NCBI GenBank assembly: GCA_032718475.1
Contig: JAUCBJ010007166.1
Coordinates: 74,525 to 138,524, forward strand
Reading direction: 5' to 3'
Source of the DNA: Nemertoderma westbladi
Lineage: Eukaryota; Animalia; Xenacoelomorpha
DNA length: 64,000 nucleotides
Positions 2,878 to 62,004 of the stretch are shown here, piece after piece. The first letter of the stretch is position 1. Each line of letters begins with the position of its first letter. The translations under genes and the position numbers were made by a program. Below the pieces are notes generated by a model. That model made no database searches. It was not told the origin of the DNA and saw only the letters and a list, made by a program, of their open reading frames with translations.

Positions 2878-4152
2878 TGTAAAAGCTTCTGTGGGATATA
2901 ACTGGCCCCTTTGCTTCGCAATCCAGTTTCCCCCCAGGCGCTGGAATACTCTAAAAAGGTTCTCTAACTGTATAAATATTCCCCTCGCCCTCAAGGTACC
3001 GTTACAGGTGTTTTAACGGACATAAAAGTCATTTTGCTATATACGTGTTTTAGCGGACATGGTAAGACAAAAAACCTGCAATGCGGCAAATACCTTTCAT
3101 AGCTTAGCCGTGATGATTCATATTACGACATCTAACAGCTGGTTGCTGACATGGAAACAGCCATTGGACGCATGGTTCTTTGTTTGGCTTGAGCCAATCA
3201 GAGCGATTTTTCCTGTCGACGTGTAGCTTTTCGGTCGATCATAAGGAGTGTGTTCAGTCTTACTGTTTTTTCTTGATACTTTGTTGTTATTGCTGTCTAG
3301 GCCAGGAACAATGGCTCTAGAATCAATTCGTTTCATACTTTTAGAAGAAACATTGGTAGGCTAAAATTATAGAGCGTATGACTGTTATCTAATCAATTCA
3401 ATGCAATTCTTAACAATTTCATTCACAATTCAATACTTTGTTGTTATTACTGTTCAACATACATTATTATACTGCTATTTACTGTTGTGTTTGGTTGAAT
3501 ATTATTTGGAGAACATATATAAAGAACCCAAATTTCCCAATTTTCTTGATACACTACAGGTTAGAGAGACGGGTTATATATAGCGATTGCGACTTATATT
3601 GTTGTGGTTTGTAGTGAATTTAATGCTATTTGATAAGCACTACATTGGTCCGTTGCTATTCCCTTTATATATTATAAAATTCATTGACGGTCGGCAAATT
3701 AGTGAGCAGTATTGTGTGTTACCAGTAGTGTGCATGATTGTGATTGATAACTAAGCATTTCCTAAAGAATGCGCCTCATACGTGAATCATAAGCCTTACC
3801 GACTTACCGTTGTGATTAGTATAAGTCATATCTCTGTTTACTTAGATAGAGCGCCACGTCCTAAAGGAACTGTTAATATTTCCCGAAAGTAAATAATATT
3901 AGTCAGAAATTAATTATTAACGATCAATCGAATAATACAATACAGTAAGCTTCACTGCAATAATAATTTAAGCCGACAGAATCCAGTCTCCCGGGATTAT
4001 CCAGCGGGTGAATGGACGCGCACTAGGCTGGCTTCTGCTAATGTTGTGTTTATTGGTATTAAATATTTGTCTTCTTCTAAAGTATATTATAAACCAAAAG
4101 ACATATAAATTTTGGCAGGTTAAACTGCTAAAGGTCTTCAAAAGCGCGTACA
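2878..4152 (+). repeat. 3' LTR of + strand copy (1275 bp, diverged subfamily)
   Basis: Begins TGTAAAAGCTT after the PPT and ends AAAGCGCGTACA; both ends are homologous to the 1202-bp LTRs, the middle is diverged. Confidence 0.88.
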
Positions 4153-5390: not shown

Positions 5391-5870
5391 TGAAAGTTTA
5401 AATCAATTAACACATTTATTTATGATTCCTTGAATAACACTATTGTCTTGCATGATATATCAATAAAAATGGTGTTTTGAACTTAAATTTAGCAAAATAA
5501 GTAATCTAAAATAGCCAAGTTCATACTTGCATTAACAGAATTATAATAATTATTACCCACAAACCAAGGACAACTGAAGCGAGGACTGGCACATGGTAAA
5601 TCCAGACTTCGCTAGCAAAGGCCATGATGTTTATGTCAGTATGTTACCGGTAACCAGTTGACTTGAACTGATTAACATACTCATCCTGGGGTAGGACCTA
5701 AAAAATTATTTAGAATCTATTTTTGGTAATAGTTTTTCAATTACATGTTGCTTTCATGTATTGTTTTCTATTTCCCCGGTAACTTGTAGGTCGAGATTTT
5801 GACTGGCCATTCATTTGGTTAGGGTAGTGGGAAACCATCCAATTGCACGTTTTTTGAATGTAATTATACC

Positions 5871-7072
5871 TGTTCGCGCTTTCAGACCTTTGGCAGTTTA
5901 ACCCGCCAAATTAAGATGTCTTCTAGATATTAAATCGCTTTTTAGCCTATGACAAGTATTTGATTCACTACACTAGTCGAAACCAATCCGTGCGCGACCA
6001 TTCACCCGCTGGATATTCCCGGGAGATTGGGTTCGACGGTTTAATTTTATTGCTATGTAAGCTTAATGTATTATTCGACTGACAGTATTATATAATCTCT
6101 GACAATATTATTTACCTTCGGGAATATTAACAGTTCCTTTAGGACGTGGCGCTTTATCTATATAAACAGAGTTATGACTTAAACTACTCACAACGATATG
6201 GCTTAATTATAATTCACATATATGGCGCATTCTTTAGGAATTGCTTCTTTAACAGACTCGCTCATACGCAATGCTGCACAATACTGCACACTAATCTGCC
6301 AATCTTCACTGATTTTAGTCACATATAAAAGGAACACAGACTGACTCATGTAGGGTCTATCAAATAACATTAGATTCACTTCAAACCACTTTAACATAAG
6401 TCACAATCGTTATTGGTAACCTTTCTCTCTTACCTTCGGTATATCAAGAATATTGGGTGTCGGGGTTATTTCTCGTTATTCCAATATAATAATTCATCAA
6501 CAAATATAATGAATAACCGACAACAAATAGCAGTATGCAGTATTCACAGATCAATCGTGCCAGTTTGTTTTGATATTTACAGAGTTTAAAGCCAGGTTGT
6601 TTGATGCGTAATTGCAGCCAGTTAAAGGATATATGTCCTTGTAATTAAACCTACTAGTGTTGAGCTAAAAAGCATAAAACATAAAACACTACAAAGCCGT
6701 TCTTTCGTGGCTTTGAAAAACTCGTGACTACTGCTCTATACGAGGATACCAACTCCCTTATTCCACGAAGCTCCCGTTCAACACAGAGAAAGAGCAGTGA
6801 GATAGGAAATTTTCAGTTCAGTACTCTGTGATAGGTCAAAATCAAGGCTAACTCAAATTCTATTGGGAGATACAAAACAAGGCTATGACGCAACCTCCCT
6901 AGGCTTGTTGGCCGATTAAACAGAGCCCAGATGCCTGCGTACAGCAAATCAGCCAATAAGCTGGTAACTTGCACTATTTTTAGCTGTAGATCACTTTGAG
7001 AGTATTCTTAGCGACTGGGGGGGAACTGGCCAACAAGGCAAACGAATCAGTTATCCCACAAAAGCTTTTACA
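5871..7072 (-). repeat. 3' LTR (1202 bp)
   Basis: Direct repeat of 17426-18627 (offset 11555, no differences seen by eye, identical small ORFs in the track); minus-strand AATAAA at 6046-6051. Confidence 0.95.
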
Positions 7073-7082
7073 CCGCTCCCAG
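7073..7082 (-). promoter_or_regulatory. Polypurine tract (plus-strand primer)
   Basis: Minus strand reads CTGGGAGCGG immediately before the TGT of the 3' LTR; the same motif is at 2868-2877. Confidence 0.8.
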
Positions 7083-7150: not shown

Positions 7151-8692
7151 TTAGTCTTTCTTGCGCGGACGGCGTTTACGCAGTTTCTTGAGGCTAGCAA
7201 GAGTCCTTTTCTCTTTGGGGAGAGCCACTTTACGAGGAGGGCTGTAGCTCCTAGGCGAAGGGTGCAATATGATTGCATTAGAAGGTTTGGGTTTACGGTC
7301 GGTGTCTCGTCCATTTCGATATGCTTCTCCTCGAGCTGATTTTCCTCCGCTTGTCATGGGATACGTTCGTCCAAAACTCTCGCAGAGAATAGGGTTTTCT
7401 AAGCTTGATATCTTCTTTGAGATTCGAGGTTTCCCAATCGAACTGAGATAAGGCCAATTCGTTTATCGATTGGACTTACTGTTATAACTTACGTTTATCT
7501 GAACAAACGCAGGTTTCTTTGTTGATCTTTATAGAATAGCGTTTAACTCGTTTCGTACAACGCTCTCCTTCACCTTGATGAAGGGTTGTATTGCGTTAAA
7601 CGGGACGACCATACGGTTGGATAGTGATATTAGGTGTCTGCGTCATAATCCGGCTAGGTAAGATGGGCGGCTAGATAGAAATCACTGTCGGAGTGTTACC
7701 GATTAATTGTTAGGGTAGCACTAGATCTTGAACAGTGAATACCGTCCGCGAGGATCCGCGACACCACCAGGATCGCAGGTCTGAGGTCCAACTAAGGAAT
7801 GAGGAGGTTTGACCGAGTATTCCGGGACTCTGATCGTAGGTTTACTCTAGGATCGTTAGAGCCGAGTGAGCATAGGTGATACGTCAAACAAGTTTCGCTC
7901 GAAACTCCAGTAAATATAACGAACACAACTGTGTTTAACACAACGTTTCCGTGGATGTTTATGTCTTTCCGTTTATTGGCTGGGTCTAGGGCATTTACCG
8001 TAATAATACCCAAAAACGTACGTTTTGTAGGGGAAACGCGAGTGATCTTTCTCCAGCTTACAATATTCCTCCATCCGTTCGAAGCTATTCGGTACAACAG
8101 GTAGCGGTCGATCGGCGGTAAGATACATCATAGGGGAATCGAGCCGTTTGAGTTCTACCATGCGGTCATGATGTATACCTTGAGGATATCGAGTTTCTAG
8201 ATTTTGTTGACTGGCAATATTGAGATATGTTTCTATCAGGAATTCCAGATAATCGTTGAAGTCGCTGCGTTTATCCGGCTCCTCAACGTCTTCTCTTTCG
8301 AGTCTGTTTCGAATAGAATTCTCGTGTTCCATTCTCGGTTTATCGTTCCGCCTCCGCTGGGTAGGATATTTCAATCGTACCATTTCCCTTTTGGTGTCGA
8401 CATTGTCCGTATCGTGTAGATCGATAGGATGACCAGTAGTTAAGAAGCCCATATACGTACCATTACGCTGCGTATATCGAGCAGCGAATTTTCTATAGTC
8501 CAACTCACGCGTGAGCTGCTCTTGGGACATTGGCGGTTCGATATAACGACCATCGTCCTCCGCAGCAGTTGGACTAACGTCGCCGCGTATTAAGCTATCA
8601 ACAAACGCTTGTAAAGTAGAGTATATCGCTCCCCGATACCAAGACCATCTTCTATCAACTCCGTCATATCTGCTATATATGAGTTTATCCAT
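7151..8692 (-). pseudogene. Accessory 3' ORF of the minus-strand element (239-aa ORF plus disrupted continuation to a basic C-terminus)
   Basis: 7973-8692 shares LQAFVDSLIRG...ENSIRNRL with ORF 1350-1727; 7151-7357 shares AIILHPSPRSYSPP...KKLRKRRPRKKD with the end of ORF 1906-2799; the middle is unrelated and contains stops. Confidence 0.6.
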
Positions 8693-10325
8693 ATTATAAT
8701 GAGTTTATATTTAGGCGAGCGGGCGTCGCTGCCTACCTCAATCAACCCCCGGACAGTACGAGATCCTCAGCGCCGATGTGTCGTCGTCGCTGTACTTTCG
8801 CCAACGACGTAGCCGCACAACGACAACGACAACCGGCACAAGTCACTCGACTGTCCGTCCCAAAGTCTTAGATGTACTTCAGGTTTTCCTTGGAGAGTTA
8901 GGTTACTTTTACGATTGCGACTGGCTACTGTAAACACACCTTAGCAGTAACATTCACCTATAAACTCACAAATACCACACACACAACTTGTCACAAATTA
9001 CACACATTCGGGCCATTTGTCCGTTAGTCAATGCCTTCCAGAATGTCACTGTATTAGTATGTATCCTGGGATACTAGTAGTGCGCTATTTATTCCCTATG
9101 CTATTCAATGGGACAAGCTTTCTATTGTTCTTTTAACTCAATTCTAATTCTAGCGTGGTTGTTGCTATGGTGACATTATGCAAAGCTAGCGGTAGAATTA
9201 GGGTAGTTCCAATGCATACAGATCTGGGATGTTATTTAATAGTATTCTTTAATAGTCAATGTTCTGTTTTATACATGACTTTATGAATTTTATCGGCTAT
9301 TGACTATGTTTGGGAGACTTTCACACACTCATACGCATGATAAGATAAATCTCCGCTCCCTTGATCTATTAATTAATGAAATTTTGGGAACTTTATAAAT
9401 TGCGTAAAAATGGCAATTTATTAAATTCATTAAAAGGCATGAATTTAAATTTATTCCCTGAAATTTTATTATTTGACAACTAAATGGACATATTTTGATT
9501 CTAGAACATGTCTGGGGACACAAGATCCTTAATTCTATGACAATTGTCTTTTTAAGAATATCGGTAAATGCTACGATATCTTAATTGACTAGAATTATTG
9601 CAGGATCTGAATTTTACAGATTTTGATTTATTAGATTTTGCAAATATTAATTAATTAATATTTGAGATGGGCACCGATTTATTCCAGAACTTGTCTGGGG
9701 ACGTTAACCACTGATTCTAGAATTTGTCTTTCAAGTATATCGGTGGGTGCCGCGATATCTTAATCGACTAGAATTACAGATGGTCAAAGGGTTTAACAGA
9801 TTTATTTTGCGTTATACGCTACTGTTAAAGGGACATCACGCTACTATATGTATTATTTAATATACGGTATGAGAGCAATATCGCACGAAGCAATGTCAGT
9901 GTGAAGAGGCAAGTCGTTTCCAAGGTCTACCCAGAGCTTGGTTTAGCCGAGACACGAGGATCTGAACTTTGCATTCCTAATACTCTGCCTACCAATAATA
10001 CTTAAATATAGTAGTGGCTTTATTGTACTTTAATAAGTACGGACATTTCATCTTACTGTAGTCACGTATTTATAATATGATACGGACAGTAAGGAAAGAG
10101 GAAAAGAATTATTTCTTGCCGTCGCATTAAATATAATATATACGTAATTAAGTAATAAACGCGAATATATATTGCACTAATCTACTAAATAATCGCTAAA
10201 ATAACATTCTACTGAATAAAATTAAAGAAAACGATTATAATAAAATTACATAGTAATACATACATAAATATAAAAATAATAAAATAATATAAAATAATAG
10301 AGTCACACACCCACTCCATATGTTG

Positions 10326-13300
10326 TTACGTTATGGAGTCCCTAGATGTTTGAAGGATTAGGGAGGTGGTCGTGGGAAGAGAATCTTGCCTTCCACAGTT
10401 TCCGGAGAGTCCTCCATTCCCTTCCGATAAACACAAACGACCGACTGGGTGATTGAGTCGCTGCATCCTGAATACAATTCCAGGTTTCCTCTTCGTCCTG
10501 GAATAGTGACGATAGAAACATCGCTCAAAGTATATGACGGCGTCACAAAGCCGATTCCAGGAGCTATAGTGGTCCGTCGCTCTCTGCAGGAGAGGTGAGA
10601 GTCCCTGCGAGACATCTGATGTTCCAGAGCTCCAATCGCTCTCTCTGATCTTCATGAAGGATCCACTCGCGGTGGGGAGGTCCAGATCCACGGCGTCGTC
10701 CCTGGCAATATGTAATACCGACAGATCTGTCCCGGGTTCAAATAACTCCGCTCCACCCGTCCTGGTTTTAGGTTTAACTTTCTCCGCTCCCTTGGCTGGT
10801 CTAATCTCAGTCGGAGTAAGATGGGGAGGCCATTCATCCTCCTTACTCAGGAAGTCGGGTTCACCTAACCGGTCTGTAGTATCTGTCAGTTCTTGAGGAG
10901 TTGCTCCTCTGGAAGCGATGTCAGTTGGATTAAACTTCTTGGGGCAATATCTCCATTGATCTACATTGGAGCTAAGATTGTCATTATCTGAGGAGTGTGG
11001 TGTTCCCTCAGTTGGGTCGTCTCCCTCACTAGTATCATCTTCCCATTCACTCACCTGGCAGACGCGATCTTGAAGCAGTCTTTCCCTGAGCGTTCTACGG
11101 GAAGGTCCAGTAAGGTACCAACCTACTCTAGTTCTTACCGCATAGGTCTGTAGTGGCTGCGGTTGAGCAGGCCGTTTCTCTAATGTCTCCAGCGCCTCAT
11201 GCGCGTTTTGGCCGATGAGTATTTGCACTCCAGGATAATCAGTCTGGAATCGAGGTATGTTAAGATGTTGGATGCTCTCATCCTCGTCCCAATTATAAAG
11301 GTCTGCTTGAGTAGTAGCGAAGTTCTTTATAGCCACCATTTTCACTGACCTTATGCTGTGTTCTCCTAGTTCGTCCTGGGGGGTGGACAACGCTCCTACA
11401 TAATAATCAGCTGTTATTGTAGATTTCCAAACTTGCATAATGCCTGACATGTTGAGCTTAGTTTGGAACTTGGGTTGTCCAGCAAATATATCTTCGGCTA
11501 GCTCTTTATCGATGAATGTTCCTGTACTACCGGAGTCAAGGAGGGCGTTCACTACATAACTCCTCTCAGGTCCGTGAACCCTTACTTGCACCACAGGAAA
11601 CTCTCGGATCCCTACATTGGAAGATGGCTCTTTCCAAGATGGTTGTCGCTCAGAAGTAGTTAGAGTAAAGTCGTTATCTGGATCCTTTTCATAGGTGAGT
11701 GCTCGATACACTGCGGTATTTATCATGTAACAGGATTCGTTTTCGTCGGAGAACTCGTCTGTATAGAATCCTTCCATCTCAGATTGATCAGTGTCGTTCA
11801 CATCACTGAATTGGACATGTAGTTCGGACTCACTTACCTGACTCGGGCTGTTTCGTTCGAATTCCGTGTGCAACAAGATATGATGTTTTGCGCCGCACTT
11901 TGCACACCTTGCGTCGGAGTTACAGGTTCGCCGTTGGTGTCCTCGTCTGAGGCAATTATAACACAACCGCTTATCCCACATGACTTCACGTCTATCCTTT
12001 AGTGATTTCCTCAGGAATTTATCACACGCATTTAAACGGTGGGGCCCGTCGCACAGCACACATTTGGGCTTGATGTTACTTACTTTAACATGTGCTGTGT
12101 GGTGCACACTTGTTCTTTCCTCGGGCTTTCTCACCTGAATTCTTTTAGGAGACGTAGGAGGGGTTTTTTGTACCGGTTCCCTTCTGTCATTGGGTCGAGA
12201 CTTGGATTTACTTACCTGATCTTTAGGCATTTTATTGACATAAGATCTGTCAGTGTCTTTCCCGCTGTCCTCTCCTTGAGAAGTTTGGCTTTCACCGTCG
12301 TCGGTATAACATACTGGTATTACCCTTCTCCTAGAAACGGGTTTCTCACTTACCTTACTTTCCGCTGTCTTCTCTCTGGACTGCTTTATGAGCTGTAATT
12401 TCACCTCGCTATCCAGGAATGACATGAGATCAGCCATGGTAGGGTCTCGTTGTTGTTGTTCCATCATATATAACACCTTCTTGTCCCAGCGTGTACCTAC
12501 TCCACCCTTGGGCAAAGTAGATGCTAAGGCTCCTACAACCATAGAATTCTGGTATTCATGAGACTTACCTAACCAATCTAGTTGTCTACAGATCTCCTGA
12601 ATCTCATCGGAAAACTCTATAATCCCGCTGCTAAGAAACTTTCGGGGCGCCATTAATTTCGCATATAAATACCTAGCTATGTTAGTCCTATTACCATACC
12701 TGATGTTTAGTGTATCCCAAACTTGTCTTAATCCGTCTGGATGTCCAATAAACTTTAACGCCATTAACTTGGGAGATCCTTCCAAGCACTCGATGAGGTA
12801 TCTAAGCTTTTCTCCATTAGATAGTACAGAGTTCTGTATGTTATCTTTGTAATATTCATTAAAAGGTAACCATTTCATCTCATCTCCATTGAACTTGACG
12901 ATCTCTCCAACCTTTACCGCTTGCCGGGCTTCGGTTCTAGCCATTTGACGCGTAAAACTTTCTTGGGCCATCGTGCTATTTAATATCGAGTTATCGGTAT
13001 ATAAATTTCTCGGATTATGATCCGGTCTATAGGGAATATCACTATCAACAGGTCTATAATTACCCTTAATAGGGTTCACTATAGGAGTTTCTACTTCGCT
13101 AGCAGTATAGATGCTTGTAGGCTCCACACCTTGCGCATGAGATACTTCAGACCTAACGGGTTGACACATTGTTACAGAGGGTGGTGGTATACCCTTTTTT
13201 AAGTTTACTAATTTATCGCGTTCTAACGCGATACTTTGCTGCACCTTTTGCAACTCTAACCTACTTTCCCTTACTGTGCCCTTGAATTGCTGGACAGTCT

Positions 13301-14366
13301 CTTCCAACTCTCGGACCTGTTGGGAGGAGCGTATCCGATTCTCCTTCATCTCTCCAAGGAGAATATCCATCCCCCGCCGTCTCTCGTCTACCCAATCAAC
13401 CGCCGAAACGGGATCCGCCAACGTCGTAGCGGGCAGACGAGGGACAACGGGCGACAAATTTGGAATATTTCGCTCGGGGTCCAGGACTTGAACTGTCTCC
13501 TGGGCAGTTCTACGGGGCACAGGTAGCTTAGTGCTATGCAGAGGGAATTTAGAGGTAGTTTCAGGGAGCACAGGTGTGTCTATCACCGAAGGGGTGATTT
13601 CAAGAACAGGCCTAATTATTTCAGGCTCATCTACTATAGTAGGGAGTCTTTCTATTTTAATTATTTGGTCTGTGGGCTCTGTACTACCTAAGTTGGTGTT
13701 ATTTAGTTGCCTTCTAACAGCTGGAGGCAAATCAGGCAATTTCTGACGGTGGAATGTTCTTTTACGTCTACTTAGACGAGATCTATTTCCCTTGCCTTCA
13801 GTATCGGTGGTATCGCCTTCCTCAGATGATGTATATCCCTGTCTTTTGGGAGTAGATCGATTCATCATCTGCATATTACTAGCTGTTAACTGTTTATTTA
13901 TGCAGTCTTGATTCTCCTGAATGTTTTCCAATTCTAATTGGGTGGTTTCTTCAGCCGCTCTCCGTTCTGCTTCTACCACTGCCGCTGCCACTTTTGCCTC
14001 TGCCGCTGCCTCTGCCGCTGCCGCCTTTCTTTCTGCTTCTGCAGCTGCCACTGCTGCTGCTACTGCCGCTGCCTTTCTGTCTTCTATGCGTTTTTTCTTT
14101 ACTTGTTCTTCTTGTTCTCTAGCTATGCGGAGTTGTTCATCGAATTTAGCTTGGTTCGCCGCTAACCTATCCACATCAATCGCATCTAACACGAGTTTGG
14201 CTCCTTCGCTATTAGGGCTAAGTCCCTTTAACCTTCTCCTCAACTCTTCATCTCCCAAAAAACTGATAGTCTGACAGATAGATATCAATGGCATCCTTCT
14301 TATGCGGTTTCTCTGCCGTCGCTTCACTTTCCACTTGGGAAAAAGTAGCGTCCGTCGATTCTCCAT
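10326..14366 (-). CDS. BEL/Pao Gag-protease polyprotein, with RT/RNase H deleted and no integrase
   Basis: DUF1759-like KFNGDEMKWLPF...EKLRYLIECLEG; three Pao-type Zn knuckles (CVLCDGPHRLNAC, CYNCLRRGHQRRTC, CAKCGAKHHILLH); aspartic protease ALLDSGS; TRVGWYLTGP; then directly the RNase H tail WRYCPKKFNPTDIASRG and the linker YSSWNRL. Confidence 0.9.
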   Translation of the reverse strand: MENRRTLLFPKWKVKRRQRNRIRRMPLISICQTISFLGDEELRRRLKGLSPNSEGAKLVLDAIDVDRLAANQAKFDEQLRIAREQEEQVKKKRIEDRKAAAVAAAVAAAEAERKAAAAEAAAEAKVAAAVVEAERRAAEETTQLELENIQENQDCINKQLTASNMQMMNRSTPKRQGYTSSEEGDTTDTEGKGNRSRLSRRKRTFHRQKLPDLPPAVRRQLNNTNLGSTEPTDQIIKIERLPTIVDEPEIIRPVLEITPSVIDTPVLPETTSKFPLHSTKLPVPRRTAQETVQVLDPERNIPNLSPVVPRLPATTLADPVSAVDWVDERRRGMDILLGEMKENRIRSSQQVRELEETVQQFKGTVRESRLELQKVQQSIALERDKLVNLKKGIPPPSVTMCQPVRSEVSHAQGVEPTSIYTASEVETPIVNPIKGNYRPVDSDIPYRPDHNPRNLYTDNSILNSTMAQESFTRQMARTEARQAVKVGEIVKFNGDEMKWLPFNEYYKDNIQNSVLSNGEKLRYLIECLEGSPKLMALKFIGHPDGLRQVWDTLNIRYGNRTNIARYLYAKLMAPRKFLSSGIIEFSDEIQEICRQLDWLGKSHEYQNSMVVGALASTLPKGGVGTRWDKKVLYMMEQQQRDPTMADLMSFLDSEVKLQLIKQSREKTAESKVSEKPVSRRRVIPVCYTDDGESQTSQGEDSGKDTDRSYVNKMPKDQVSKSKSRPNDRREPVQKTPPTSPKRIQVRKPEERTSVHHTAHVKVSNIKPKCVLCDGPHRLNACDKFLRKSLKDRREVMWDKRLCYNCLRRGHQRRTCNSDARCAKCGAKHHILLHTEFERNSPSQVSESELHVQFSDVNDTDQSEMEGFYTDEFSDENESCYMINTAVYRALTYEKDPDNDFTLTTSERQPSWKEPSSNVGIREFPVVQVRVHGPERSYVVNALLDSGSTGTFIDKELAEDIFAGQPKFQTKLNMSGIMQVWKSTITADYYVGALSTPQDELGEHSIRSVKMVAIKNFATTQADLYNWDEDESIQHLNIPRFQTDYPGVQILIGQNAHEALETLEKRPAQPQPLQTYAVRTRVGWYLTGPSRRTLRERLLQDRVCQVSEWEDDTSEGDDPTEGTPHSSDNDNLSSNVDQWRYCPKKFNPTDIASRGATPQELTDTTDRLGEPDFLSKEDEWPPHLTPTEIRPAKGAEKVKPKTRTGGAELFEPGTDLSVLHIARDDAVDLDLPTASGSFMKIRESDWSSGTSDVSQGLSPLLQRATDHYSSWNRLCDAVIYFERCFYRHYSRTKRKPGIVFRMQRLNHPVGRLCLSEGNGGLSGNCGRQDSLPTTTSLILQTSRDSIT

Positions 14367-14444
14367 GGGTTGAGCGCTCCTCCAACTGAGCTTTCCACTG
14401 AGCTGCTCCTTGAACCTGGCGACTCACCCGTTGAAACCAAGTTT

Positions 14445-15242
14445 TTACGGCAACTTGCAACGACGTGTCTTGTTTTCTTTTAGAAGCCTCCTCAAAGATA
14501 AGATTAGCCTAATCCTCAAAACTCTTTCTCTAACTTGATAAAGCAGCGATCCCTGCTCTTGAGGTCCTTGAGGTTGTTGAAACAGTTTTCTCTCTACTCG
14601 CTCCATAGAGCTGAAGAATCCCTGGGCGTATCCGGCTGCGGACCTCTTCCATACAGCTGGATCGATGGTTTCCTTGGCTACTCCCATCCGGTGTATGTCT
14701 TCCCAGGCAGCTTCTAATAAATCAAACGGGAGTCCGGGTCCGGGGAAGTTCCATTGCGACTCGACAATAGACTTCAGTTCTTCACTCGTGTATCCCGCGT
14801 AACTATCTCTAGTTGACCGTTGACTTCTCGCCCAATCGATCTGGTGTTCTTCCACCGCGATCAATAACCCAGCGAGCACGGCTGCAGGAAGGATGAGAAG
14901 GGGATCCGTATAAACCGCATCCGTCATCTCTGCTCTGCGCTCGGGTGTCAGCTCTACAGTATCCTCACTACTGGAGCTGCTGGGCCGCTGAGGAATAAGT
15001 TCTTGACTAGCGGGTTGTTGCTGTTCCGCTGCCTTTTGGTCCCGCTTGACCTGAGCTCGAGTGCCTATGATAGACCTACGATGTTGGACCAGCCTAGGTT
15101 CTGTTATTACTACTGGAGGGATGACCTTCCTCACAGTGGGAGGTGAACTGAACTTACGACCAGACGGTTGTACATCTCTATCTGAGTCGCAGATAGTTAC
15201 ATCTAATAAACTGTCTGACAGGTTCTGCTTAGTATCAGACAT
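14445..15242 (-). CDS. Upstream ORF / probable N-terminal part of Gag
   Basis: 265-aa ORF in the same frame as 10326-14366, linked to it by a coding-like bridge in another frame (14248-~14510). Confidence 0.6.
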   Translation of the reverse strand: MSDTKQNLSDSLLDVTICDSDRDVQPSGRKFSSPPTVRKVIPPVVITEPRLVQHRRSIIGTRAQVKRDQKAAEQQQPASQELIPQRPSSSSSEDTVELTPERRAEMTDAVYTDPLLILPAAVLAGLLIAVEEHQIDWARSQRSTRDSYAGYTSEELKSIVESQWNFPGPGLPFDLLEAAWEDIHRMGVAKETIDPAVWKRSAAGYAQGFFSSMERVERKLFQQPQGPQEQGSLLYQVRERVLRIRLILSLRRLLKENKTRRCKLP

Positions 15243-16579
15243 GACTATGTATACCGTTGAATGTCTACTGCTGTATTACAGTCTGAGTAAGTCTAATAAC
15301 TGTTAGTAACTGTTAGTATTAACTGCTAGCCTAGTAATTAATTACCGATACTGCTACTCAGTGTAGCGTGATATATATAATATATTAGAATACCGGTATA
15401 CTTATAGTATATATAACTATATAAGTATTATTACAGACTATGTTTATCACAGAATACCGGTATAATTTTAGCACAAATATATATAAATATATAATAGGCC
15501 TATCGGAATACCGGTATACAGCTTACAGTTTGTAGTATATATAATTCTGGAATAGAATTAATTACAAGTACCGGTATAATTTCAGCCTAGATTTATAGAA
15601 ATAAGATAATAGGCCTATCGTAGATACCGGTATATCAATTATTTTAGAATAATTGAATTTGTGAACTTTAGGGTTACTTGGTTACTTTAACTTACTTTAT
15701 TACCGTTATTTAAGCAGTAATCCAACTGATATTGAGACCTAATGGTTTTATGGTAGGCCTACTATTTATAAATCGTTAGATTTGATTTATAATGTATTTA
15801 TACCCGTTTTAATGGGTTTAGTCAATGTTTGAAATAAATGTTATTATTTCTGGGGTAATCACTACACAAAGCGGTGCGCTTTTAGTGAAGTGTTACGTAT
15901 AGGACACTAAAACAAATAATTCTAATTTACCTAAGTTACTTAATACTACAAATTACGTACAATTCGGGTGAGATTACAATCTCTAAATAAACACAAAAAT
16001 TTACAAAAAAACACAAAATACGAATTTTTAGGGTAATTTTACAAGAAGTCTACAAACCAGCCTAACAAAGGGTTAGATATCCGGTTATTACAACGGACAG
16101 GGTACTACGGTATTTGAAATAATAAGTAGTAGTAAATACACTGCGTTGTCTAGATAGGAAAATACCACCGCCTGACGACCTATAGCCGTATCGCTATAGG
16201 TACTACGTTATGTATCACGGAGTGTTCCTACCTAGAAGTTAATAGAGCTAATCGAATGTGCCTATTAACCACTTTACAACACAAATATAATGCCTACACT
16301 AATTACTTTCGGAAAGCACTGTACACTAAACCCTAAATTAGGTACGAGTACTTGTACAACAAATAATCAGTAGTTAATTATACTTGAACAGCTAAAAGAA
16401 CCACGGCATCTGCTGGAGTGACCGATGCACAAAATCACCAGTCTTTACCTACGCCAAGCAGCCCGTGTAGTACCGGGGTTAATTTAACTATAGCGGTATG
16501 TATAACAAACACAATTACTGTAGGAACAAACTTGGGGAATGAATGTTGCGGATAATCGCATAAACTCTGAATAATAAAT

Positions 16580-17150
16580 ATTACGCTACGCGTACAAACT
16601 ACTCAAACAAAATACAGACCGAACACTGACAGACTACTATCAAGCCTAAACAAACTACGGTATATGCAGACTCCGAAATGATTAGGGAGTATGCGCTCTA
16701 ACCCAGTAGTGCGACTTATTCTTTAGTTGGGGGTTTACCTTACAGCGTTCGCTGCCCCTACTTCCTAACCGTACTTAATCAGACAAATGATCTACACACA
16801 CTGCAATCCGTTCAGACCTAATAACAGCCGGACAACTATCCAGCCTACAAATTATCTAAATAAAATTATACGCTACCCGTACAGACTTACACAAACAAAG
16901 TACAGACTAAACGATGGCAGACTACTCTCAAGCCTAAATAAACTACAGGACATGCAGACTCCGAAATGATTAGGGAGTATGCGCTCTAACCCAGTAGTGC
17001 GACTTATTCTTTAGTTGGGGGTTTACTTTACAGCAATGGCTACCCCAACTTCCCAACCGTTCTTTATCGGACAGGTGACCTACACACACTGCAACTCGTT
17101 CAGACTTAACAGCAATCAGACAACAGCTCAGCCTACAAATTGTCTGTACA
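16580..17150. repeat. Tandem duplication (~288-bp period) in the element's 5' UTR
   Basis: GCAGACTCCGAAATGATTAGGGAGTATGCGCTCTAACCCAGTAGTGCGACTTATTCTTTAGTTGGGGGTTTAC occurs at 16666 and 16954. Confidence 0.85.
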
Positions 17151-17413
17151 ATCTGATCAGGCTTACACGCCTTCTGTTCAATACTGGCCTACAAACAAAT
17201 AAAACTTGACAGAAATAAGTAAAAATCTCAATAAAAAACCAGGGCGGGCCCTCCCTGATTAATTATTAAGGCCTACCGGTATATAACTATCAAATCGAAT
17301 AATACTGCTGTACCTGTACTGCTGTAGGTACCGGTCCGGGTGGTTAGGTAGTCAGGCCTACTGGGTACCGGTTGCCGGTACTTCAGCTTTATTGCCTACT
17401 GCAATACAGAAGC

Positions 17414-17425
17414 TATATCCTTTAA
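17414..17425 (-). promoter_or_regulatory. Non-tRNA primer-binding site, complementary to an LTR-internal 12-mer (candidate self-priming site)
   Basis: Sense strand TTAAAGGATATA abuts the 5' LTR end, with no TGG. Its exact complement TATATCCTTTAA lies on the sense strand at 18177-18188. Confidence 0.6.
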
Positions 17426-18627
17426 TGTTCGCGCTTTCAGACCTTTGGCAGTTTAACCCGCCAAATTAAGATGTCTTCTAGATATTAAATCGCTTTTTAG
17501 CCTATGACAAGTATTTGATTCACTACACTAGTCGAAACCAATCCGTGCGCGACCATTCACCCGCTGGATATTCCCGGGAGATTGGGTTCGACGGTTTAAT
17601 TTTATTGCTATGTAAGCTTAATGTATTATTCGACTGACAGTATTATATAATCTCTGACAATATTATTTACCTTCGGGAATATTAACAGTTCCTTTAGGAC
17701 GTGGCGCTTTATCTATATAAACAGAGTTATGACTTAAACTACTCACAACGATATGGCTTAATTATAATTCACATATATGGCGCATTCTTTAGGAATTGCT
17801 TCTTTAACAGACTCGCTCATACGCAATGCTGCACAATACTGCACACTAATCTGCCAATCTTCACTGATTTTAGTCACATATAAAAGGAACACAGACTGAC
17901 TCATGTAGGGTCTATCAAATAACATTAGATTCACTTCAAACCACTTTAACATAAGTCACAATCGTTATTGGTAACCTTTCTCTCTTACCTTCGGTATATC
18001 AAGAATATTGGGTGTCGGGGTTATTTCTCGTTATTCCAATATAATAATTCATCAACAAATATAATGAATAACCGACAACAAATAGCAGTATGCAGTATTC
18101 ACAGATCAATCGTGCCAGTTTGTTTTGATATTTACAGAGTTTAAAGCCAGGTTGTTTGATGCGTAATTGCAGCCAGTTAAAGGATATATGTCCTTGTAAT
18201 TAAACCTACTAGTGTTGAGCTAAAAAGCATAAAACATAAAACACTACAAAGCCGTTCTTTCGTGGCTTTGAAAAACTCGTGACTACTGCTCTATACGAGG
18301 ATACCAACTCCCTTATTCCACGAAGCTCCCGTTCAACACAGAGAAAGAGCAGTGAGATAGGAAATTTTCAGTTCAGTACTCTGTGATAGGTCAAAATCAA
18401 GGCTAACTCAAATTCTATTGGGAGATACAAAACAAGGCTATGACGCAACCTCCCTAGGCTTGTTGGCCGATTAAACAGAGCCCAGATGCCTGCGTACAGC
18501 AAATCAGCCAATAAGCTGGTAACTTGCACTATTTTTAGCTGTAGATCACTTTGAGAGTATTCTTAGCGACTGGGGGGGAACTGGCCAACAAGGCAAACGA
18601 ATCAGTTATCCCACAAAAGCTTTTACA
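17426..18627 (-). repeat. 5' LTR (1202 bp)
   Basis: Direct repeat of 5871-7072; TGTAAAAGC...GCGCGAACA on the minus strand. Confidence 0.95.
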
Positions 18628-19013
18628 TACGCCTTATACTTTAATCATAAGCGGTATCGTTGCGTTTAGTATAAGTCCTAGTTCTGTTTAAATAGATAGA
18701 GCGCCACGTCCTAAAGGAACTGTTAATATTTCCCGAAAGCCAATAATATCTGTCAGAGATTAATTATTAACGATCTATCGAATAATACAGTAAGTTTACA
18801 CTGCAACCTTACACTGCAATAATAAAATTTAAGCATCCGAATTCAGCCTCCCGGGTGTAGATCCATCGGGTGAATGATCGCGCATGGGCTGACTTCGGCT
18901 AATGTTTTGTGTATTAGCATAAAATATTGTCGTATGCTAAAGGTGTTTTAATTAACTAAAAGACATATAAATTTTGGCAGGTTAAACTGCTAAAGGTCTT
19001 CAAAAGCGCGAAC
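18628..19013 (+). repeat. Partial LTR (3' ~390 bp) of the same family, opposite orientation
   Basis: Aligns by eye with ~3770-4152 and ends AAAAGCGCGAACA. Confidence 0.85.
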
Positions 19014-19326
19014 ACCCCCCCCCCCCCCCCCCCCCCCCCAGTGGTAATAGGGTTAATATTTCCTCAGTTTAAAAACAATTATATACGACCAGTAAATACT
19101 CTCACATTTGTATTGTCGGAATGGATGTTTTACAGCAGGTTGAGTCTACAATCGTGCGTTGCTAAGTTTTGATAAGGCGTTTCTGGCCTCATTTTGCTTG
19201 TTTACTAAAAATGCTTAGCCACTACACTTTACTGCTGCTTTAAAATCGAGCTATGTTCTGGCGTATTTTATGACTTCCAAATCCTGGACAGTCCATTCAA
19301 TGATGCCCACGCCTTCCCCTTACGTA

Positions 19327-22307: not shown

Positions 22308-24616
22308 TGACGTTTAATTTCAATCAAAGCTGTTAAGTCCCTTTATAAATATATCATTACGCTCAGTCAATTTAATGTAGATTGTTGTGCCTCCGCGCTC
22401 AAGCTTACCGTAGTGTCTAAGGAAGACTATTGGTTTCTGATAACCTTAAATTTTAAGTTGGGATAGGTCATTCTTTATTTTTGACACACAAAACAGACAG
22501 ACAAACAGATAGACAAACATTAAGACAGTTTCTGTAAGTGGTGCAACCTTTTATAAATTCGTTTTCTGGATTCAGCATTAAGATTTGATCTTAAAATCAA
22601 AAAGAAAAAAATTATTATTTTATACTATTTTTTCATACATTTGAATTTTCTGCAAATGAGATTATTATAAATTGGCCCCTTATTCTATATGACGGGTCAC
22701 ATGTTCCTTAAGAACTTCAAAATTGATAATTGGGTTAAGTGTATTAATTATTATGATGGATAAGGTTCATAGAAATGTAAGAAGATATCTTTCTGGAATT
22801 TATATACTGTTGTTGTCAAGGTAACTGGGTGCAGAGATCAAATTCTAAACGCCTGTAATTCAAGACGACAGAAGTTTCTAATCTAAAATTATTGTACTTC
22901 ATAAGTAAATAAAGTAAATAAATGACAATCAAACTATTTGATACTTAAATTTGTTTACAATCCCGTTTTAAATCCCGTAAAACGATAATTTTCCATTATG
23001 ACCTCCTGCTGGAAATTTGGCTACTATGTCATATTTATAACATTTACAACTGACACGCCTGGGTCATCATGTCCTTTGTTTCTAATAATTGTTAACCGAA
23101 ATTTAATATTCTGTAAAGTAAAAATCATGCTATTACAAAACTGTCTCTGATTGGACAGTTTTTTTTATTGGCACATAATGACCTTTATAAATATATTTCA
23201 CAAATTACGATATTTAATTAAAATAGATCATTGGCAAATTTAACATATTATTCAAAGTGACAAAACCGAATAGAAATTGTTTTATAGAATTAGTAAATAA
23301 TTATTCGAATATTTCATTATTTATACCTATTACCATGGCAACGAGAATTTCAGCCAATTCAAGTGTTAAATATTTGATATAATTTTATTTCCTTTACTCA
23401 CCTAAAAGAATACAAGAATACCAAATCTCAAGAACAAAATACCTCATCGTTGTAAAATTTGCACTCGGTAACCTTGGCAACAAGATAAAAATTCCAGAAA
23501 GTCATTTTATTACATTTCTTGTCATATCCACCTAACCAAACTAGCAATTAAGAAGTTTATAAGGAAATATTATGAAACAAGTGTCTTAAATAGGAAAAAG
23601 ATCGGCCCACGCTAATTTCAGCGCTCCGTTCGCATCCACGGCCTGTTATTTAGTTTTTTTTTCAGAACATAATATTAGAAAATATCGGCCTCCACATTTA
23701 CTTCCAAGCTCCGACCTAAGTGTTTGTTACTTGTATCCATGGTAGCTAGTGGATGGAAACTATTTATGCTTATATTATATTTTATACTCTAATTGATTGG
23801 TAGTTACTAAGGTACGAAATGCGGCATGCGAAACGATTACCGAGAGCGAACTCAATATATTTTATATAGCCCATCATTGCATTGTTATAATAAGCAATTT
23901 GTAATGGGGAAGTAACGCTTCGACTGGTATCTTTATTGGATTTTCGTTGGGCACGCACAGCTTTGCAAAGTCGGCAATAACGTCCATTTTTTTTTAAATC
24001 CTTTTTAATTTCTGTTGTGTGTATAAACAGAGTTAGTACTTTAAAATGGACTGACATAAACTCTCTTGAAAACACTTAGCATAATTCATGTTGTTTATGT
24101 TAATAATAGGTTACGTTGCTGTATGTAAATTTGATATTGAATATTTTTTACATCACATTGCATCAGCATGTATAAAAATATATACCATAAAAATTTTAAA
24201 GTCTTATTTTGCACAAAAGTAGGACCTCCTATAGAGGTATATTATTTTTACATTGATTCATTCCTATTTTATATTTTTAAATAATTGGAAAAATATATAT
24301 CCGTCATGTGAAATGACCAGATTGTTATATTGTCATACGTATTAGATATCAAATATATACTTTATCAGAGTTTGATTTTGTGACTGTAGCTTTCAGATGC
24401 GTAATAATGGCAATGAATGATGGAATCTCAACATATTAATTGTTCATTTACTTATGAATTTAAACGAATTGGAAATAACATATTACTATTATGTAGGTTA
24501 TTTGATACAAATATCGATGCTGTAGATGAATATTTATTTGTATACAGTTATTTATTTCATGAATTCCGCATTATTGCAATCGAACCATAATGCCAATTAT
24601 CTCAAGTCATTAGGTC

Positions 24617-27600
24617 CCTCCCCCCTGTTCCCTGTCCCCTGTTCCCTGTTCCCTGTTCCCTGCTCCCCGTTCCCTGTTCCCTGTTCCCTGTTCCCTGTTC
24701 CCTGTCCCCTGTTCCCTGTTCCCTGTTCCCTGTCCCCTGTCCCCTGTTCCCTGTTCCCTGTTCCCTGTTCCCTGTCCCCTGTCCCCTGTTTCCTGTCCCC
24801 TGTTCCCTGTTTCCTGTCCCCTGTCCCCTGTTCCCTGTTCCCTGTCCCCTGTCCCCTGTCCCCTGTCCCCTGTTCCCTGTCCCCTGTTCCCTGTTCCCTG
24901 TTCCCTGTCCCCTGTTCCCTGTTCCCTGTTCCCTGTTTCCTGTTCCCTGTTCCCTGTTCCCTGTCCCCTGCCCCCTGTCCCCTGTCCCCCGTTCCCTGTT
25001 CCCTGTTCCCTGTTCCCTGTTCCCTGTTCCCTGTTCCCTGTTCCCTGTTCCCTGTTCCCTGTTCCCTGTTCCCTGTTCCCTGTTCCCTGTTCGCTGTTCC
25101 CTATTCCCTGTTCCCTGTCCCCTGCCCCCTGTCCCCTGTCCCCTGTTCCCTGACCCCTGTTCCCTGTTCCCTGTCCCCTGTTCCCTGTTCCCTGTCCCTG
25201 TTCCCTGTTCCCTGTTCCCTGTTCCCTGTTCCCTGTTCCCTGTTCCCTGTCCCTGTTCCCTGTTCCCTGTTCCCTGTTCCCTGTTCCCTGTTCCCTGCCC
25301 CCTGTTCCCTGTTCCCTGTCCCCTGTTCCCTGTTCCCGGTCCCCTGTCCCCTGTTCCCGGTCCCCTGTTCCCTGACCCCTGTTCCCTGTTCCCTGTCCCC
25401 TGTTCCCTGTTCCCTGTCCCCTGCCCCCTGTTCCCTGTTCCCTGTTCCCTGTTCCCTGTCCCCTGTTCTCTGTCCCCGGTCCCCTGTTCCCTGCCCCCTG
25501 TCCCCTGTTCCCTGTCCCCTGTTCACTGCCCCCTGTTCCCTGTTACCTGTTCCCTGTCCCCTGTTCCCTGTTCCCGGTCCCCTGTTCCCTCCCCCCTGTT
25601 CCCTGTTCCCTGTCCCCTGTTCCCTGTTCCCTGTTCCCTGCCCCCTGTTCCCTGTTCCCTGTTCCCTGTTCCCTGTTCCCTGTTCCCTGTTCCCTGTTCC
25701 CTGTCCCCTGCCCCCTGTCCCCTGTTCCCTGTTCCCTGTTCCCTGTTCCCTGTCCCTGTTCCCTGTTCCCTGTTCCCTGTTCCCTGTTCCCTGTTCCCTG
25801 CCCCCTGTTCCCTGTTCCCTGTCCCCTGTTCCCTGTTCCCGGTCCCCTGTCCCCTGTTCCCGGTCCCCTGTTCCCTGACCCCTGTTCCCTGTTCCCTGTC
25901 CCCTGTTCCCTGTTCCCTGTCCCCTGCCCCCTGTTCCCTGTTCCCTGTTCCCTGTTCCCTGTCCCCTGTTCTCTGCCCCCTGTCCCCTGTCCCCTGTTCC
26001 CTGTCCCCTGTTCCCTGTCCCCTGTTCCATGTTCCCTGTCCCCTGTCCCGTGTCCCCTGTCCCCTGTTCCCTGTCCCCTGTTCCCTGTTCCCTGTCCCTG
26101 TTCCCTGTTCCCTGTTCCCTGTTCCCTGTTCCCTGTTCCCTGTTCCCTGTTCCCTGTTCCCTGTTCCCTGTTCCCTGTCCCCTGTTCCCTGTTCCCTGTT
26201 CCCTGCCCCCTGTTCCCTGTTCCCTGTTCCCTGTTCCCTGTTCCCTGTTCCCTGTTCCCTGTTCCCTGTCCCCTGCCCCCTGTCCCCTGTTCCCTGTTCC
26301 CTGTTCCCTGTTCCCTGTCCCTGTTCCCTGTTCCCTGTTCCCTGTTCCCTGTTCCCTGTTCCCTGTTCCCTGCCCCCTGTTCCCTGTTCCCTGTCCCCTG
26401 TTCCCTGTTCCCGGTCCCCTGTCCCCTGTTCCCGGTCCCCTGTTCCCTGACCCCTGTTCCCTGTTCCCTGTCCCCTGTTCCCTGTTCCCTGTCCCCTGCC
26501 CCCTGTTCCCTGTTCCCTGTTCCCTGTTCCCTGTCCCCTGTTCTCTGTCCCCGGTCCCCTGTTCCCTGTCCCCTGTTCCCTGTCCCCTGTTCACTGCCCC
26601 CTGTTCCCTGTTACCTGTTCCCTGTCCCCTGTTCCCTGTTCCCGGTCCCCTGTTCCCTCCCCCCTGTTCCCTGTCCCCTGTTCCCTGTTCCCTGTTCCCT
26701 GTTCCCTGTTCCCTGTTCCCTGTTCCATGTTCCCTGTTCCCTGTTCCCTGTTCCCTGTTCCCTGTTCCCTGTCCCCTGTCCCCTGTCCCCTGTTCCCTGT
26801 TCCCTGTTCCCTGTCCCTGTTCCCTGCCCCATGTTCCCTGTTCCCTGTTCCCTGTTCCCTGTTCCCTGTTCCCTGTTCCCTGTTCCCTGTCCCCTGTTCC
26901 CTATTCCCTGTCCCTGTTCCCTGTTCCCTGTTCCCTGTTCCCTGTTCCCTGTTCCCTGTTCCCTGTCCCCTGTCCCCTGTCCCCTGCCCCCTGCCCCCTG
27001 TTCCCTGTTCCCTGTTCCCTGTTCCCTGTCCCTGTTCCCTGTTCCCTGTTCCCTGTTCCCTGTTCCCTGTTCCCTGTTCCCTGTCCCCTGCCCCCTGTCC
27101 CCTGTTCCCTGTTCCCTGTTCCCTGTCCCTGTTCCCTGTTCCCTGCCCCCTGTTTCCTGTTCCCTGTTCCCTGTTCCCTGTTCCCTGTTCCCTGTTCCCT
27201 GTTCCCTGTTCCCTGTTCCCTGTTCCCTGTTCCCTGTTCCCTGTTCCCTGTCCCTGTTCCTGTTCCCTGTTCCCTGTTCCCTGTTCCCTGTCCCCTGCCC
27301 CCTGTCCCATGTTCCCTGTCCCCTGTTCCCTGTCCCCTGTTCCCTGACCCTGTTCCCTGTTCCCTGTCCCTGTTCCCTGTTCCCTGCCCCCTGCCCCCTG
27401 TTCCCTGTTCCCTGTTCCCTGTCCCTGTCCCATGTCCCCTGTTCCCTGTCCCCTGTTCCCTGTTCCCTGTTCCCTGTTCCCTGTTCCCTGTCCCCTGTCC
27501 CCTGTTCCCTGTCCCCTGTTCCCTGTTCCCTGTTCCCTGTCCCTGTTCCCTGTTCCCTGTTCCCTGTTCCCTGTTCCCTGTTCCCTGTTCCCTGTCCCCT

Positions 27601-28682: not shown

Positions 28683-28683
<1 letters not shown>
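24617..28683. repeat. Heptamer satellite (CCCTGTT/CCCTGTC)n, left array
   Basis: About 4 kb of 7-bp units, with occasional 6-bp units and recurring variants. Confidence 0.98.
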
Positions 28684-28721
<38 letters not shown>

Positions 28722-34300: not shown

Positions 34301-34430
34301 GTGTAATTAATGGGCGGACGTAGAACGAGGTTAAACGTTAATGCAGTATTGAGTTTATAAGGCGCAAGGCATACCGGGTGGTACGGCAGGCAGACTTATT
34401 ACCGGTAGCGGTACCAGATGCAGCAAGTGC

Positions 34431-61946: not shown

Positions 61947-62004
61947 CTGAAAATTGAGATTTAGTTTAAATGTAATAATATATGTCTTCAACTGAAGTAG
62001 GTAA

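What the first reader, a model, noticed from the sequence alone, without database searches (positions are those of the whole stretch)
17414..18188. BEL/Pao-type LTR element with no tRNA PBS but a perfect Tf1-style self-priming arrangement
Seen: directly after the 5' LTR end (...GCGCGAACA) the sense strand reads TTAAAGGATATA (17425->17414), without the TGG expected for a tRNA CCA end. Inside the LTR, 440 nt from its start, the sense strand reads TATATCCTTTAA (18188->18177; also 6633->6622), the exact 12-nt complement. Annealed, the 3' end of that 12-mer pairs with the base immediately next to the LTR, so extension would begin exactly at the terminal TG. Known: the S. pombe Tf1/sushi group (Ty3/gypsy) primes reverse transcription this way, using the first ~11 nt of its own RNA released by RNase H; BEL/Pao elements are generally described as tRNA-primed. 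Inference: transcription starts at or near 18188 (an AATAAA lies downstream at 17601-17606) and this family self-primes. I know of no such report for BEL/Pao. No clear TATA box is visible upstream of the predicted start.
Basis: partly seen in the sequence, partly recalled or inferred. Interest (0 to 1): 0.9.

Follow-up and report, generated by a model that had tools for sequence, protein, structure and literature searches.

The report
BEL/Pao retrotransposon with self-made primer
A cut-down BEL/Pao jumping gene in an animal genome has, where a host tRNA normally lands to start DNA copying, 12 letters that pair with a stretch of its own terminal repeat, and a sister family keeps the pairing with different letters, so these elements likely start copying with a piece of their own RNA, which is not how this group is described.

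Summary
Observation confirmed. The element (18627->5871, minus strand) is an internally deleted BEL/Pao copy with identical 1202-bp LTRs. The 12 nt after the 5' LTR lack TGG and are the exact complement of LTR positions 440-451 (chance about 2-4e-4 for a fixed 12-mer). A prediction noted before the test held: contigs running on from the sister LTR's end (4152) pair with that LTR's aligned 12-mer (3377-3388) at 11 of 12 positions plus one G.U, which means four two-sided changes against family A. In 7 of 7 distant BEL/Pao families with clean LTR ends, the PBS is non-tRNA and pairs (11-15 nt) with a predicted splice junction in the element's own LTR. Tf1-like self-priming is the likely function, but nothing biochemical is shown. 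ICTV describes the family as tRNA-primed; nine completed paper searches found no report of BEL/Pao self-priming. This scan noted the same thing earlier in other genomes. New variant of a known kind.

The parts
17426..18627 (-). 5' LTR of element A (1202 bp, TG...CA)
   Evidence: self-BLAST, 100% identical to 5871-7072
18177..18188 (-). candidate self-primer, LTR positions 440-451
   Evidence: exact complement of 17425-17414
17414..17425 (-). primer-binding site, directly after the LTR, no TGG
   Evidence: sister-family counterpart
17399..17406 (-). 8-nt leader motif shared with the sister family's leader; marks those contigs as internal sequence and not as flanks
   Evidence: window sequence compared by eye with loose ends
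17429..17552 (-). predicted U5 closing stem (17552-17547 with 17434-17429), 6 bp, ending 3 nt before the LTR end
   Evidence: in the MFE fold of the last 190 nt of LTRs A, B and C, with one two-sided change in B
17601..17606 (-). AATAAA, candidate poly(A) signal
18220..18240 (-). candidate 3' splice site (pyrimidine tract plus AG ending at 18220), aligned with B 3344
   Evidence: consensus scan and alignment only; no RNA evidence
17713..17988 (-). candidate intron downstream of the 12-mer (donor at 17988 aligned with B 3560; AG at 17713 aligned by eye with B 3845)
   Evidence: the A acceptor failed the pyrimidine filter; an X5 contig runs unspliced across the donor
14445..15275 (-). extra ORF (276 aa stop to stop) upstream of gag, no Pfam match
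10326..14423 (-). gag (DUF1759, three Cys/His knuckles) - protease - short RNase H C-terminal piece; RT, most of RNase H and integrase absent
7973..8704 (-). extra ORF (243 aa) downstream of the pol remnant, shared with element B, no Pfam match
7073..7080 (-). polypurine-tract-like 8-mer before the 3' LTR; the same motif precedes LTR B (2870-2877)
5871..7072 (-). 3' LTR of element A, with the second copy of the 12-mer at 6633-6622
2878..4152 (+). 3' LTR of sister family B (1275 bp; 30-94% identical to A in 50-column windows)
3377..3388 (+). family B's aligned 12-mer, differing from A's at 5 of 12 positions; pairs with the B-type PBS seen in public contigs
   Evidence: gap-free alignment over the 28 nt upstream
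18628..19014 (+). distal half of a third related LTR (C), directly flanking element A
   Evidence: 81% identical to B 3769-4152

Best explanation
This is a non-autonomous BEL/Pao LTR element whose primer-binding site pairs with a 12-nt stretch of its own LTR, and it likely starts reverse transcription with that stretch of its own RNA in place of a tRNA. Shown: the pairing, its position flush with the LTR end, the absence of a TGG site, and matched changes in a sister family. Inferred from Tf1: the transcript folds back, RNase H (here from an intact helper element, since this copy has none) cuts at the 3' end of the duplex near 18177/18176, and RT extends from there across U5 and R. Plus-strand synthesis would then copy the primer into the new PBS, which would explain why PBS and LTR change together. 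Whether the primer is the RNA's very 5' end is open; I favour an internal primer with a 5' overhang (about 60:40).
For: Exact 12/12 complement at a pre-specified place, chance 2-4e-4. Prediction recorded first and then met: 3 X5 contigs behind B's LTR end pair with 3377-3388 at 11 of 12 positions, the twelfth G.U; of the 5 positions where the A and B 12-mers differ, 4 are compensated on both sides. A second form with one extra T (1 contig each in X4 and X5) pairs 8 WC plus 1 G.U from the LTR edge. Of the 8 loose-end rows shown behind the LTR end, 3 were leader-like, 5 were unrelated flanks, and none carried A's PBS (7 rows of the table not shown). Two X3 contigs skip 86-95 nt next to the 12-mer and rejoin at 18178, so the 12-mer marks a conservation edge. 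Distant relatives: 7 of 7 families with clean CA ends have non-TGG sites that pair 11-15 nt, with no G.U, to a GT-AG junction in their own LTR; 2 of 56 mismatched LTR/PBS pairs reach 11. Blind scan: 12 of 37 families against 35 of 1332 mismatched pairs at 11 nt, 8 of 37 against 9 of 1332 at 12 nt. Pure Watson-Crick pairing fits a site that is recopied from its primer better than a structural helix (inference).
Against: No RNA, strong-stop or cleavage data. The B-type PBS contigs are short and not physically linked to the 12-mer about 765 nt upstream; the best row is a 3-contig majority (agreement 0.84) from a run under another organism label. The loop between primer and LTR end is 751 nt against 87-278 nt in the seven relatives. 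The folding prediction is unstable: pair probabilities 0.76-1.0 with 60 nt of internal sequence, 0 with 150 nt. The leader-side helix of Tf1's three-helix structure is not above shuffles (36 of 60). One 3'-flank control reached 11 nt with a G.U in the spliced test and another reached 10 contiguous. The seven families lie in another branch of BEL/Pao, and six or all seven may come from one host group.
Confidence: 0.65

Rival explanations
1. Still self-primed, but not by fold-back of the 5' end: the 12-mer lies in U3, or in a separate short LTR transcript, and the primer comes from the 3' LTR copy, from the second packaged RNA or from a small RNA cut by the host.
For: Unknown start site; the A and B LTRs are most alike in their distal 550 nt, where a promoter could lie; long primer-to-PBS distance; relatives keep an intron that has to be spliced to form the pairing segment yet survives in the LTR, and locus L074 has it in one LTR only.
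Against: No conserved TATA or initiator seen in the distal part of A, B and C (by eye); a cut in the 3' U3 would destroy template that is needed after strand transfer, unless a second RNA is used.
Confidence: 0.15
2. The duplex is a structural or regulatory helix (packaging, dimer switch, masking the PBS, splicing or translation control), and priming uses something else.
For: Covariation proves selection on pairing, not priming; other LTR helices also covary (U5 stem); B's window copy pairs through one G.U.
Against: The helix sits flush with (A, B) or within 5 nt of (seven relatives) the LTR end, exactly where minus-strand synthesis must start; no alternative PBS is visible; 0 G.U in 89 bp over seven families.
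Confidence: 0.13
3. The site binds an internal fragment of a host tRNA (half-tRNA priming), and the LTR copy is incidental.
For: Half-tRNA primers occur in some Ty1/copia lineages (PMC6317226, passages); host tRNAs could not be searched because no genome is held.
Against: A and B sites differ at 4 of 12 positions and the relatives' sites differ freely, each tracking its own LTR; a fixed tRNA primer would hold the site constant.
Confidence: 0.04
4. Chance match, or a rearrangement junction at 17425 in one damaged copy.
For: This copy is internally deleted and has no target-site duplication, so it has been rearranged somewhere.
Against: Chance 2-4e-4; the boundary and leader recur in the sister family in two studies; contigs cover the leader in all four runs laid.
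Confidence: 0.03

Closest known systems
Tf1/Tf2 (Schizosaccharomyces pombe), Tj1, Tosmo1-3 and the Tf1/sushi group of Ty3/gypsy chromoviruses
   Same: No tRNA site; PBS after the 5' LTR complementary to an 11-12-nt stretch of the element's own LTR (bioRxiv 10.1101/2022.12.06.519325 and PMC4600332, passages). A U5-side helix next to the PBS is predicted here too.
   Different: Different superfamily (BEL/Pao gag). In Tf1 the primer is the mRNA 5' end and a three-helix structure is required; here the start site is unknown, the leader-side helix is not supported, and the loop is 751 nt. In distant BEL/Pao relatives the pairing segment forms only across a predicted splice junction.
Belpaoviridae / BEL-Pao LTR retrotransposons (ICTV profile PMC8742986, whole text)
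   Same: TG...CA LTRs at the top of the 0.2-1.2 kb range, polypurine tract, DUF1759 gag with Cys/His knuckles, protease, RNase H remnant; homologs carry PF05380, PF03564 and PF18701.
   Different: ICTV gives an 18-nt PBS complementary to the 3' end of tRNA-Arg or tRNA-Gly and host-tRNA priming; this element has none. It also lacks RT and integrase and carries two extra ORFs.
TAR (Houba, Osr-1) Ty1/copia and Tcn1 elements of plants
   Same: Self-priming predicted from sequence complementarity alone (PMC6317226, passages); TAR shows that the arrangement arose outside Ty3/gypsy.
   Different: Plant copia or gypsy elements; no splice-built primer is mentioned in the passages seen.

Membership tests
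BEL/Pao (Belpaoviridae) | LTRs of 0.2-1.2 kb, TG...CA | tested here: met
   1202 bp, identical pair
BEL/Pao (Belpaoviridae) | BEL/Pao-type gag and protease | tested here: met
   DUF1759 E 3.3e-13, above cut-off; Asp_protease_2 below cut-off; 24 of 26 homologs carry DUF1759 or lie in PF05380 polyproteins with it, the rest carry PF05380; nested among BEL/Pao proteins on a long branch (no outgroup from other superfamilies)
BEL/Pao (Belpaoviridae) | pol order PR-RT-RH-IN and RT phylogeny | tested here: inconclusive
   RT and IN are deleted; only residues 1151-1201 match a BEL RT-RH profile (E 1.8e-10), downstream of PR as expected
BEL/Pao (Belpaoviridae) | polypurine tract before the 3' LTR | tested here: met
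   7080-7073, same motif before LTR B
BEL/Pao (Belpaoviridae) | 18-nt PBS for tRNA-Arg or tRNA-Gly 3' end (ICTV description) | tested here: not met
   no TGG after the LTR in A, in B-type contigs or in 7 of 7 relatives. It is therefore filed as a BEL/Pao-lineage element that departs from the family description
BEL/Pao (Belpaoviridae) | target-site duplication | tested here: not met
   flanks differ; this copy looks recombined
Tf1/sushi group (membership) | Ty3/gypsy chromovirus proteins | tested here: not met
   gag is BEL/Pao-type; not a member
Tf1-type self-priming (works like) | PBS complementary to own LTR, adjacent to the LTR end | tested here: met
   12/12, offset 0
Tf1-type self-priming (works like) | pairing kept across families through compensatory changes | tested here: met
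   4 two-sided changes plus 1 G.U between A and B; halves not on one contig
Tf1-type self-priming (works like) | [quoted passage not shown] | not testable with these tools
   no raw RNA reads listed; contigs cannot show starts
Tf1-type self-priming (works like) | three-duplex 'pretzel' structure | tested here: inconclusive
   U5-side 6-bp stem in A, B, C with one two-sided change, but 8 of 60 shuffles do as well in A; leader-side helix 36 of 60
Tf1-type self-priming (works like) | RNase H cut of the RNA duplex releases the primer | not testable with these tools
   needs biochemistry; this copy encodes no intact RNase H

The most novel reading that the evidence does not exclude
A broad part of the BEL/Pao superfamily has given up tRNA priming for an internal self-primer that is not the RNA's 5' end. 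In many families the host spliceosome assembles it across an intron in the LTR, which makes splicing a switch for replication. The family in this window is an intron-free form that carries the primer ready-made.
Probability: 0.45. Interest if true: 0.85.

Novelty: new variant of a known kind. Interest (0 to 1): 0.68.

Why it matters
The family's official description says reverse transcription is primed by a host tRNA and that replication is poorly understood (PMC8742986). If these elements self-prime, the mechanism has arisen in all three LTR superfamilies, and RNase H cleavage of an RNA duplex would be a general ability and not a Tf1 oddity. Such elements would escape control by 3' tRNA fragments and be missed by annotation tools that require a tRNA PBS. 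A primer built by splicing, as in the relatives, would tie transposition to host splicing. The claim is cheap to test: map the start site and sequence the RNA on strong-stop DNA.

Tried and rejected
No whole genome is held, so host tRNAs and genomic copy counts could not be examined. No RNA holder was listed among 9 runs; X5 is only guessed to be RNA and is kept as contigs, so it says nothing on the start site. ARAGORN found no tRNA in the window and Rfam nothing at E<=1 in 16500-19100, so there is no sign of an element-encoded tRNA-like primer nearby. Viral contigs gave no BEL/Pao locus in two scans. No close protein relative exists in the databases: best identities 23-47% over partial alignments, so the named clade (Sinbad, Suzu and so on) is not assigned; the tree places it on a long branch outside the clade used for the locus scan (46 reference proteins chosen from 62 with an RT domain). 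A splice junction as the source of the primer in A was tested and rejected: best spliced match 7 nt, contiguous match 12. One search showed no variant inside either 12-mer among the 40 rows printed, but 121 rows were hidden, so invariance is not claimed. Dropped before the 7-of-7 count: of 52 families (78 loci), four with a repeat but no clean CA end (L063 group, L066, L072, L075 group), tandem or collapsed contigs (L060/L061, L077, L019 group) and all with no readable LTR end. Of nine further loci with a known LTR start, 3 gave a spliced 11-13-nt match, 1 a contiguous 12-nt match and 5 nothing. In one search, 25 of 37 families showed no spliced match; many of those contigs lack a full LTR. 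Whole-transcript folding was rejected as evidence because it flips with the length folded.

Full report
Anatomy. The window is animal DNA (inferred from its gene and repeat content); no genome is held for it. Self-comparison shows two identical 1202-bp repeats, 18627-17426 and 7072-5871, on the minus strand, starting TG and ending CA, with a purine-rich 8-mer before the downstream one. Between them lie about 2 kb of non-coding leader, a 276-aa ORF, a 1365-aa ORF and a 243-aa ORF. The long ORF has DUF1759 (E 3.3e-13), three Cys/His knuckles and a protease-like stretch. Its 26 homologs are BEL/Pao-type proteins at low identity, and a wider search found nothing closer. After the protease only residues 1151-1201 match a BEL RT-RNase H profile; RT and integrase are absent. 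So element A is an internally deleted, non-autonomous BEL/Pao copy. It has no target-site duplication, and its right flank is the distal half of another related LTR (C, 18628-19014), so it has probably recombined. A sister element B ends in a 3' LTR at 2878-4152 on the plus strand. A tree puts A's gag-protease on a long branch within BEL/Pao; the named clade is not settled.

Observation. The 12 bases after the 5' LTR (17425-17414) lack TGG and are the exact complement of LTR positions 440-451 (18188-18177). The duplex ends at the LTR edge and cannot be extended on either side. The expected count by chance is 3.0-3.9e-4 for Markov orders 0-2 and 1.8e-3 for order 3; 11 of 72,190 control 12-mers had a complement in the LTR. 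Duplex energy is -11.6 kcal/mol.

Covariation in the host. The A and B LTRs align without gaps over the 28 nt before the 12-mer, which fixes B's counterpart at 3377-3388; it differs from A's at 5 of 12 positions. I noted the prediction first, then laid four public runs on B's LTR end at 90% likeness. Eight loose-end rows behind the end were shown (7 rows of that table were hidden). Five are unrelated flanks, as expected for 3' and solo LTRs. One row (3 contigs of run X5, agreement 0.84) is complementary to B's 12-mer at 11 of 12 positions; at the twelfth it keeps T opposite B's G, a wobble pair. Two rows (one contig each in X4 and X5, different studies) show the same site with one extra T and pair 8 WC plus 1 G.U from the LTR edge. 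All three run on into the 8-nt motif that A's leader has at 17406-17399, so they are internal sequence. A's own site was not seen behind a B-type end. Four of the five differences between the A and B 12-mers are thus answered on the PBS side; by chance about (1/3)^4 for those letters (my estimate). Limits: the contigs are short and do not link the two halves, and X5 bears another organism label. Laying runs on A's LTR showed one X4 contig beginning at 17426, flanks at 17425, cover of the leader in all four runs, and two X3 contigs that skip 86-95 nt beside the 12-mer and rejoin at 18178.

Relatives. Earlier notes of this scan reported self-complementary sites in BEL/Pao elements of other genomes, several formed across an LTR intron. 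I treated that as a lead. A scan of metagenome contigs with an alignment of 12 related polyproteins returned 78 loci (the best 80 of 529 were kept), in 52 families. Seven families have clean LTR ends. None has TGG. In 7 of 7 the site pairs 11-15 nt, without G.U, starting 0-5 nt after the LTR, with the junction of a canonical GT-AG intron (76-366 nt) in the same LTR; 2 of 56 mismatched LTR/PBS pairs reached 11, and one 3'-flank control reached 11 with a G.U. Locus L074 has that intron in its 3' LTR and lacks it in its 5' LTR, which is DNA evidence that the intron is real, unless the contig is a chimera of copies. A blind scan of 37 families gave 12 own matches at 11 nt against 35 of 1332 mismatched pairs, and 8 against 9 of 1332 at 12 nt. 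These families are not close kin of A, and by their record names six or all seven may share one host group; the blind scan adds loci from other record series, with unverified LTR ends. In A itself no splice is needed (best spliced match 7 nt).

Mechanism. In Tf1 the mRNA's 5' end pairs with the PBS inside a three-helix structure and RT's RNase H cuts the primer free (bioRxiv 10.1101/2022.12.06.519325 and PMC5341516, passages; the original Levin papers were seen only as citations). The same logic fits here, with enzymes from a helper element. It also explains the covariation: plus-strand synthesis recopies the primer into the PBS (established for LTR elements; recalled), so an LTR mutation passes to the PBS. 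A cut is needed only at the primer's 3' end, so the start site need not be 18188. Against that start: no TATA upstream in A or B, a pyrimidine-rich AG at 18220 aligned with one at B 3344, and relatives whose upstream exon would be only 4-9 nt long if the primer were terminal. None of this is RNA evidence. Of Tf1's flanking helices, a 6-bp U5 stem appears in the folds of A, B and C with one two-sided change in B, though 8 of 60 shuffles score as well in A; the leader-side helix is not above chance. Folding the whole loop is unstable. I put fold-back self-priming at 0.65, self-priming from another LTR-derived RNA at 0.15, a non-priming helix at 0.13, a tRNA fragment at 0.04 and chance or rearrangement at 0.03.

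Literature. The ICTV profile (PMC8742986, whole text) describes an 18-nt tRNA-Arg or tRNA-Gly PBS and calls replication poorly understood. Self-priming is reported for Tf1/sushi and Tcn1 gypsy elements and predicted for TAR copia elements (PMC6317226, PMC4600332, PMC6934838, PMC5443660, passages). Term searches in four BEL/Pao surveys found no mention of PBS, tRNA or priming (PMC554778, PMC3118150, PMC6238403, PMC8556966); PMC8220671 and PMC3601003 (passages) gave nothing on BEL/Pao priming. Nine completed searches listed no paper that reports it; most hits were seen as listings only. The library lacks most subscription papers, Repbase Reports and GyDB pages, and no supplements were opened, so an earlier remark may exist.

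Verdict. It works like Tf1 but is not a member of that group; it is of BEL/Pao lineage but departs from the family's described priming. New variant of a known kind, interest 0.68.

Noticed in passing
window 1330-2799 (+) and 8704-7150 (-): Elements A and B carry extra coding sequence between the pol remnant and the 3' LTR. B's 369-aa frame is Cys/His-rich; Pfam found nothing and the Atlas gave only weak CCHC zinc-knuckle look-alikes (best 0.86). A's copy is shorter and split.
   Followed up: partly
window 15275-14445 (-): A 276-aa ORF upstream of gag with no Pfam match; unusual for BEL/Pao.
   Followed up: no
window 5866-5870 and 18628-18632: No target-site duplication; element A abuts the distal half of LTR C, whose proximal half is not on A's other side. 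Public contigs show LTR C running on uninterrupted there (loose ends at 18627 and 18633).
   Followed up: partly
window 19015-19039: A run of about 25 C directly follows the CA end of LTR C.
   Followed up: no
window 16566-17145: A 290-bp tandem duplication (84% identical) in A's long non-coding leader.
   Followed up: no
window 17720-17670 (-), 3845-3895 (+), 18690-18740 (+): The most conserved block of the three LTRs (about 94% A against B), upstream of the poly(A) signal; function unknown, no Rfam match in A or C.
   Followed up: no
window 17463-17442 (-) and counterparts in B and C: A conserved 8-9-bp hairpin in U5 with G.U to Watson-Crick exchanges among A, B and C.
   Followed up: partly
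L074 1-214 and 6769-7265; L077: L074 has a 117-nt GT-AG intron in one LTR and not in the other; L077 shows both a spliced and a contiguous match to its site.
   Followed up: partly
window 24500-28700 and 34400-37900: Two long arrays of a 7/14-bp satellite with extreme strand bias; further arrays near 53400-56500 (53-bp period, inverted blocks) and 56800-58000.
   Followed up: no
window 29092-34306 (-) and 38478-39696 (-): A long frame that reads like a LINE endonuclease-RT (1171 aa) with an upstream ORF, and fragments of a second LINE-like RT; named from motifs by eye.
   Followed up: no
window 49036-50046, 60978-64000 (-), 40221-41117 (+): Long uninterrupted host-like frames (a DHHC palmitoyltransferase-like and a WD-repeat EML-like protein, named by eye), which suggests intron-poor genes or processed copies.
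   Followed up: no
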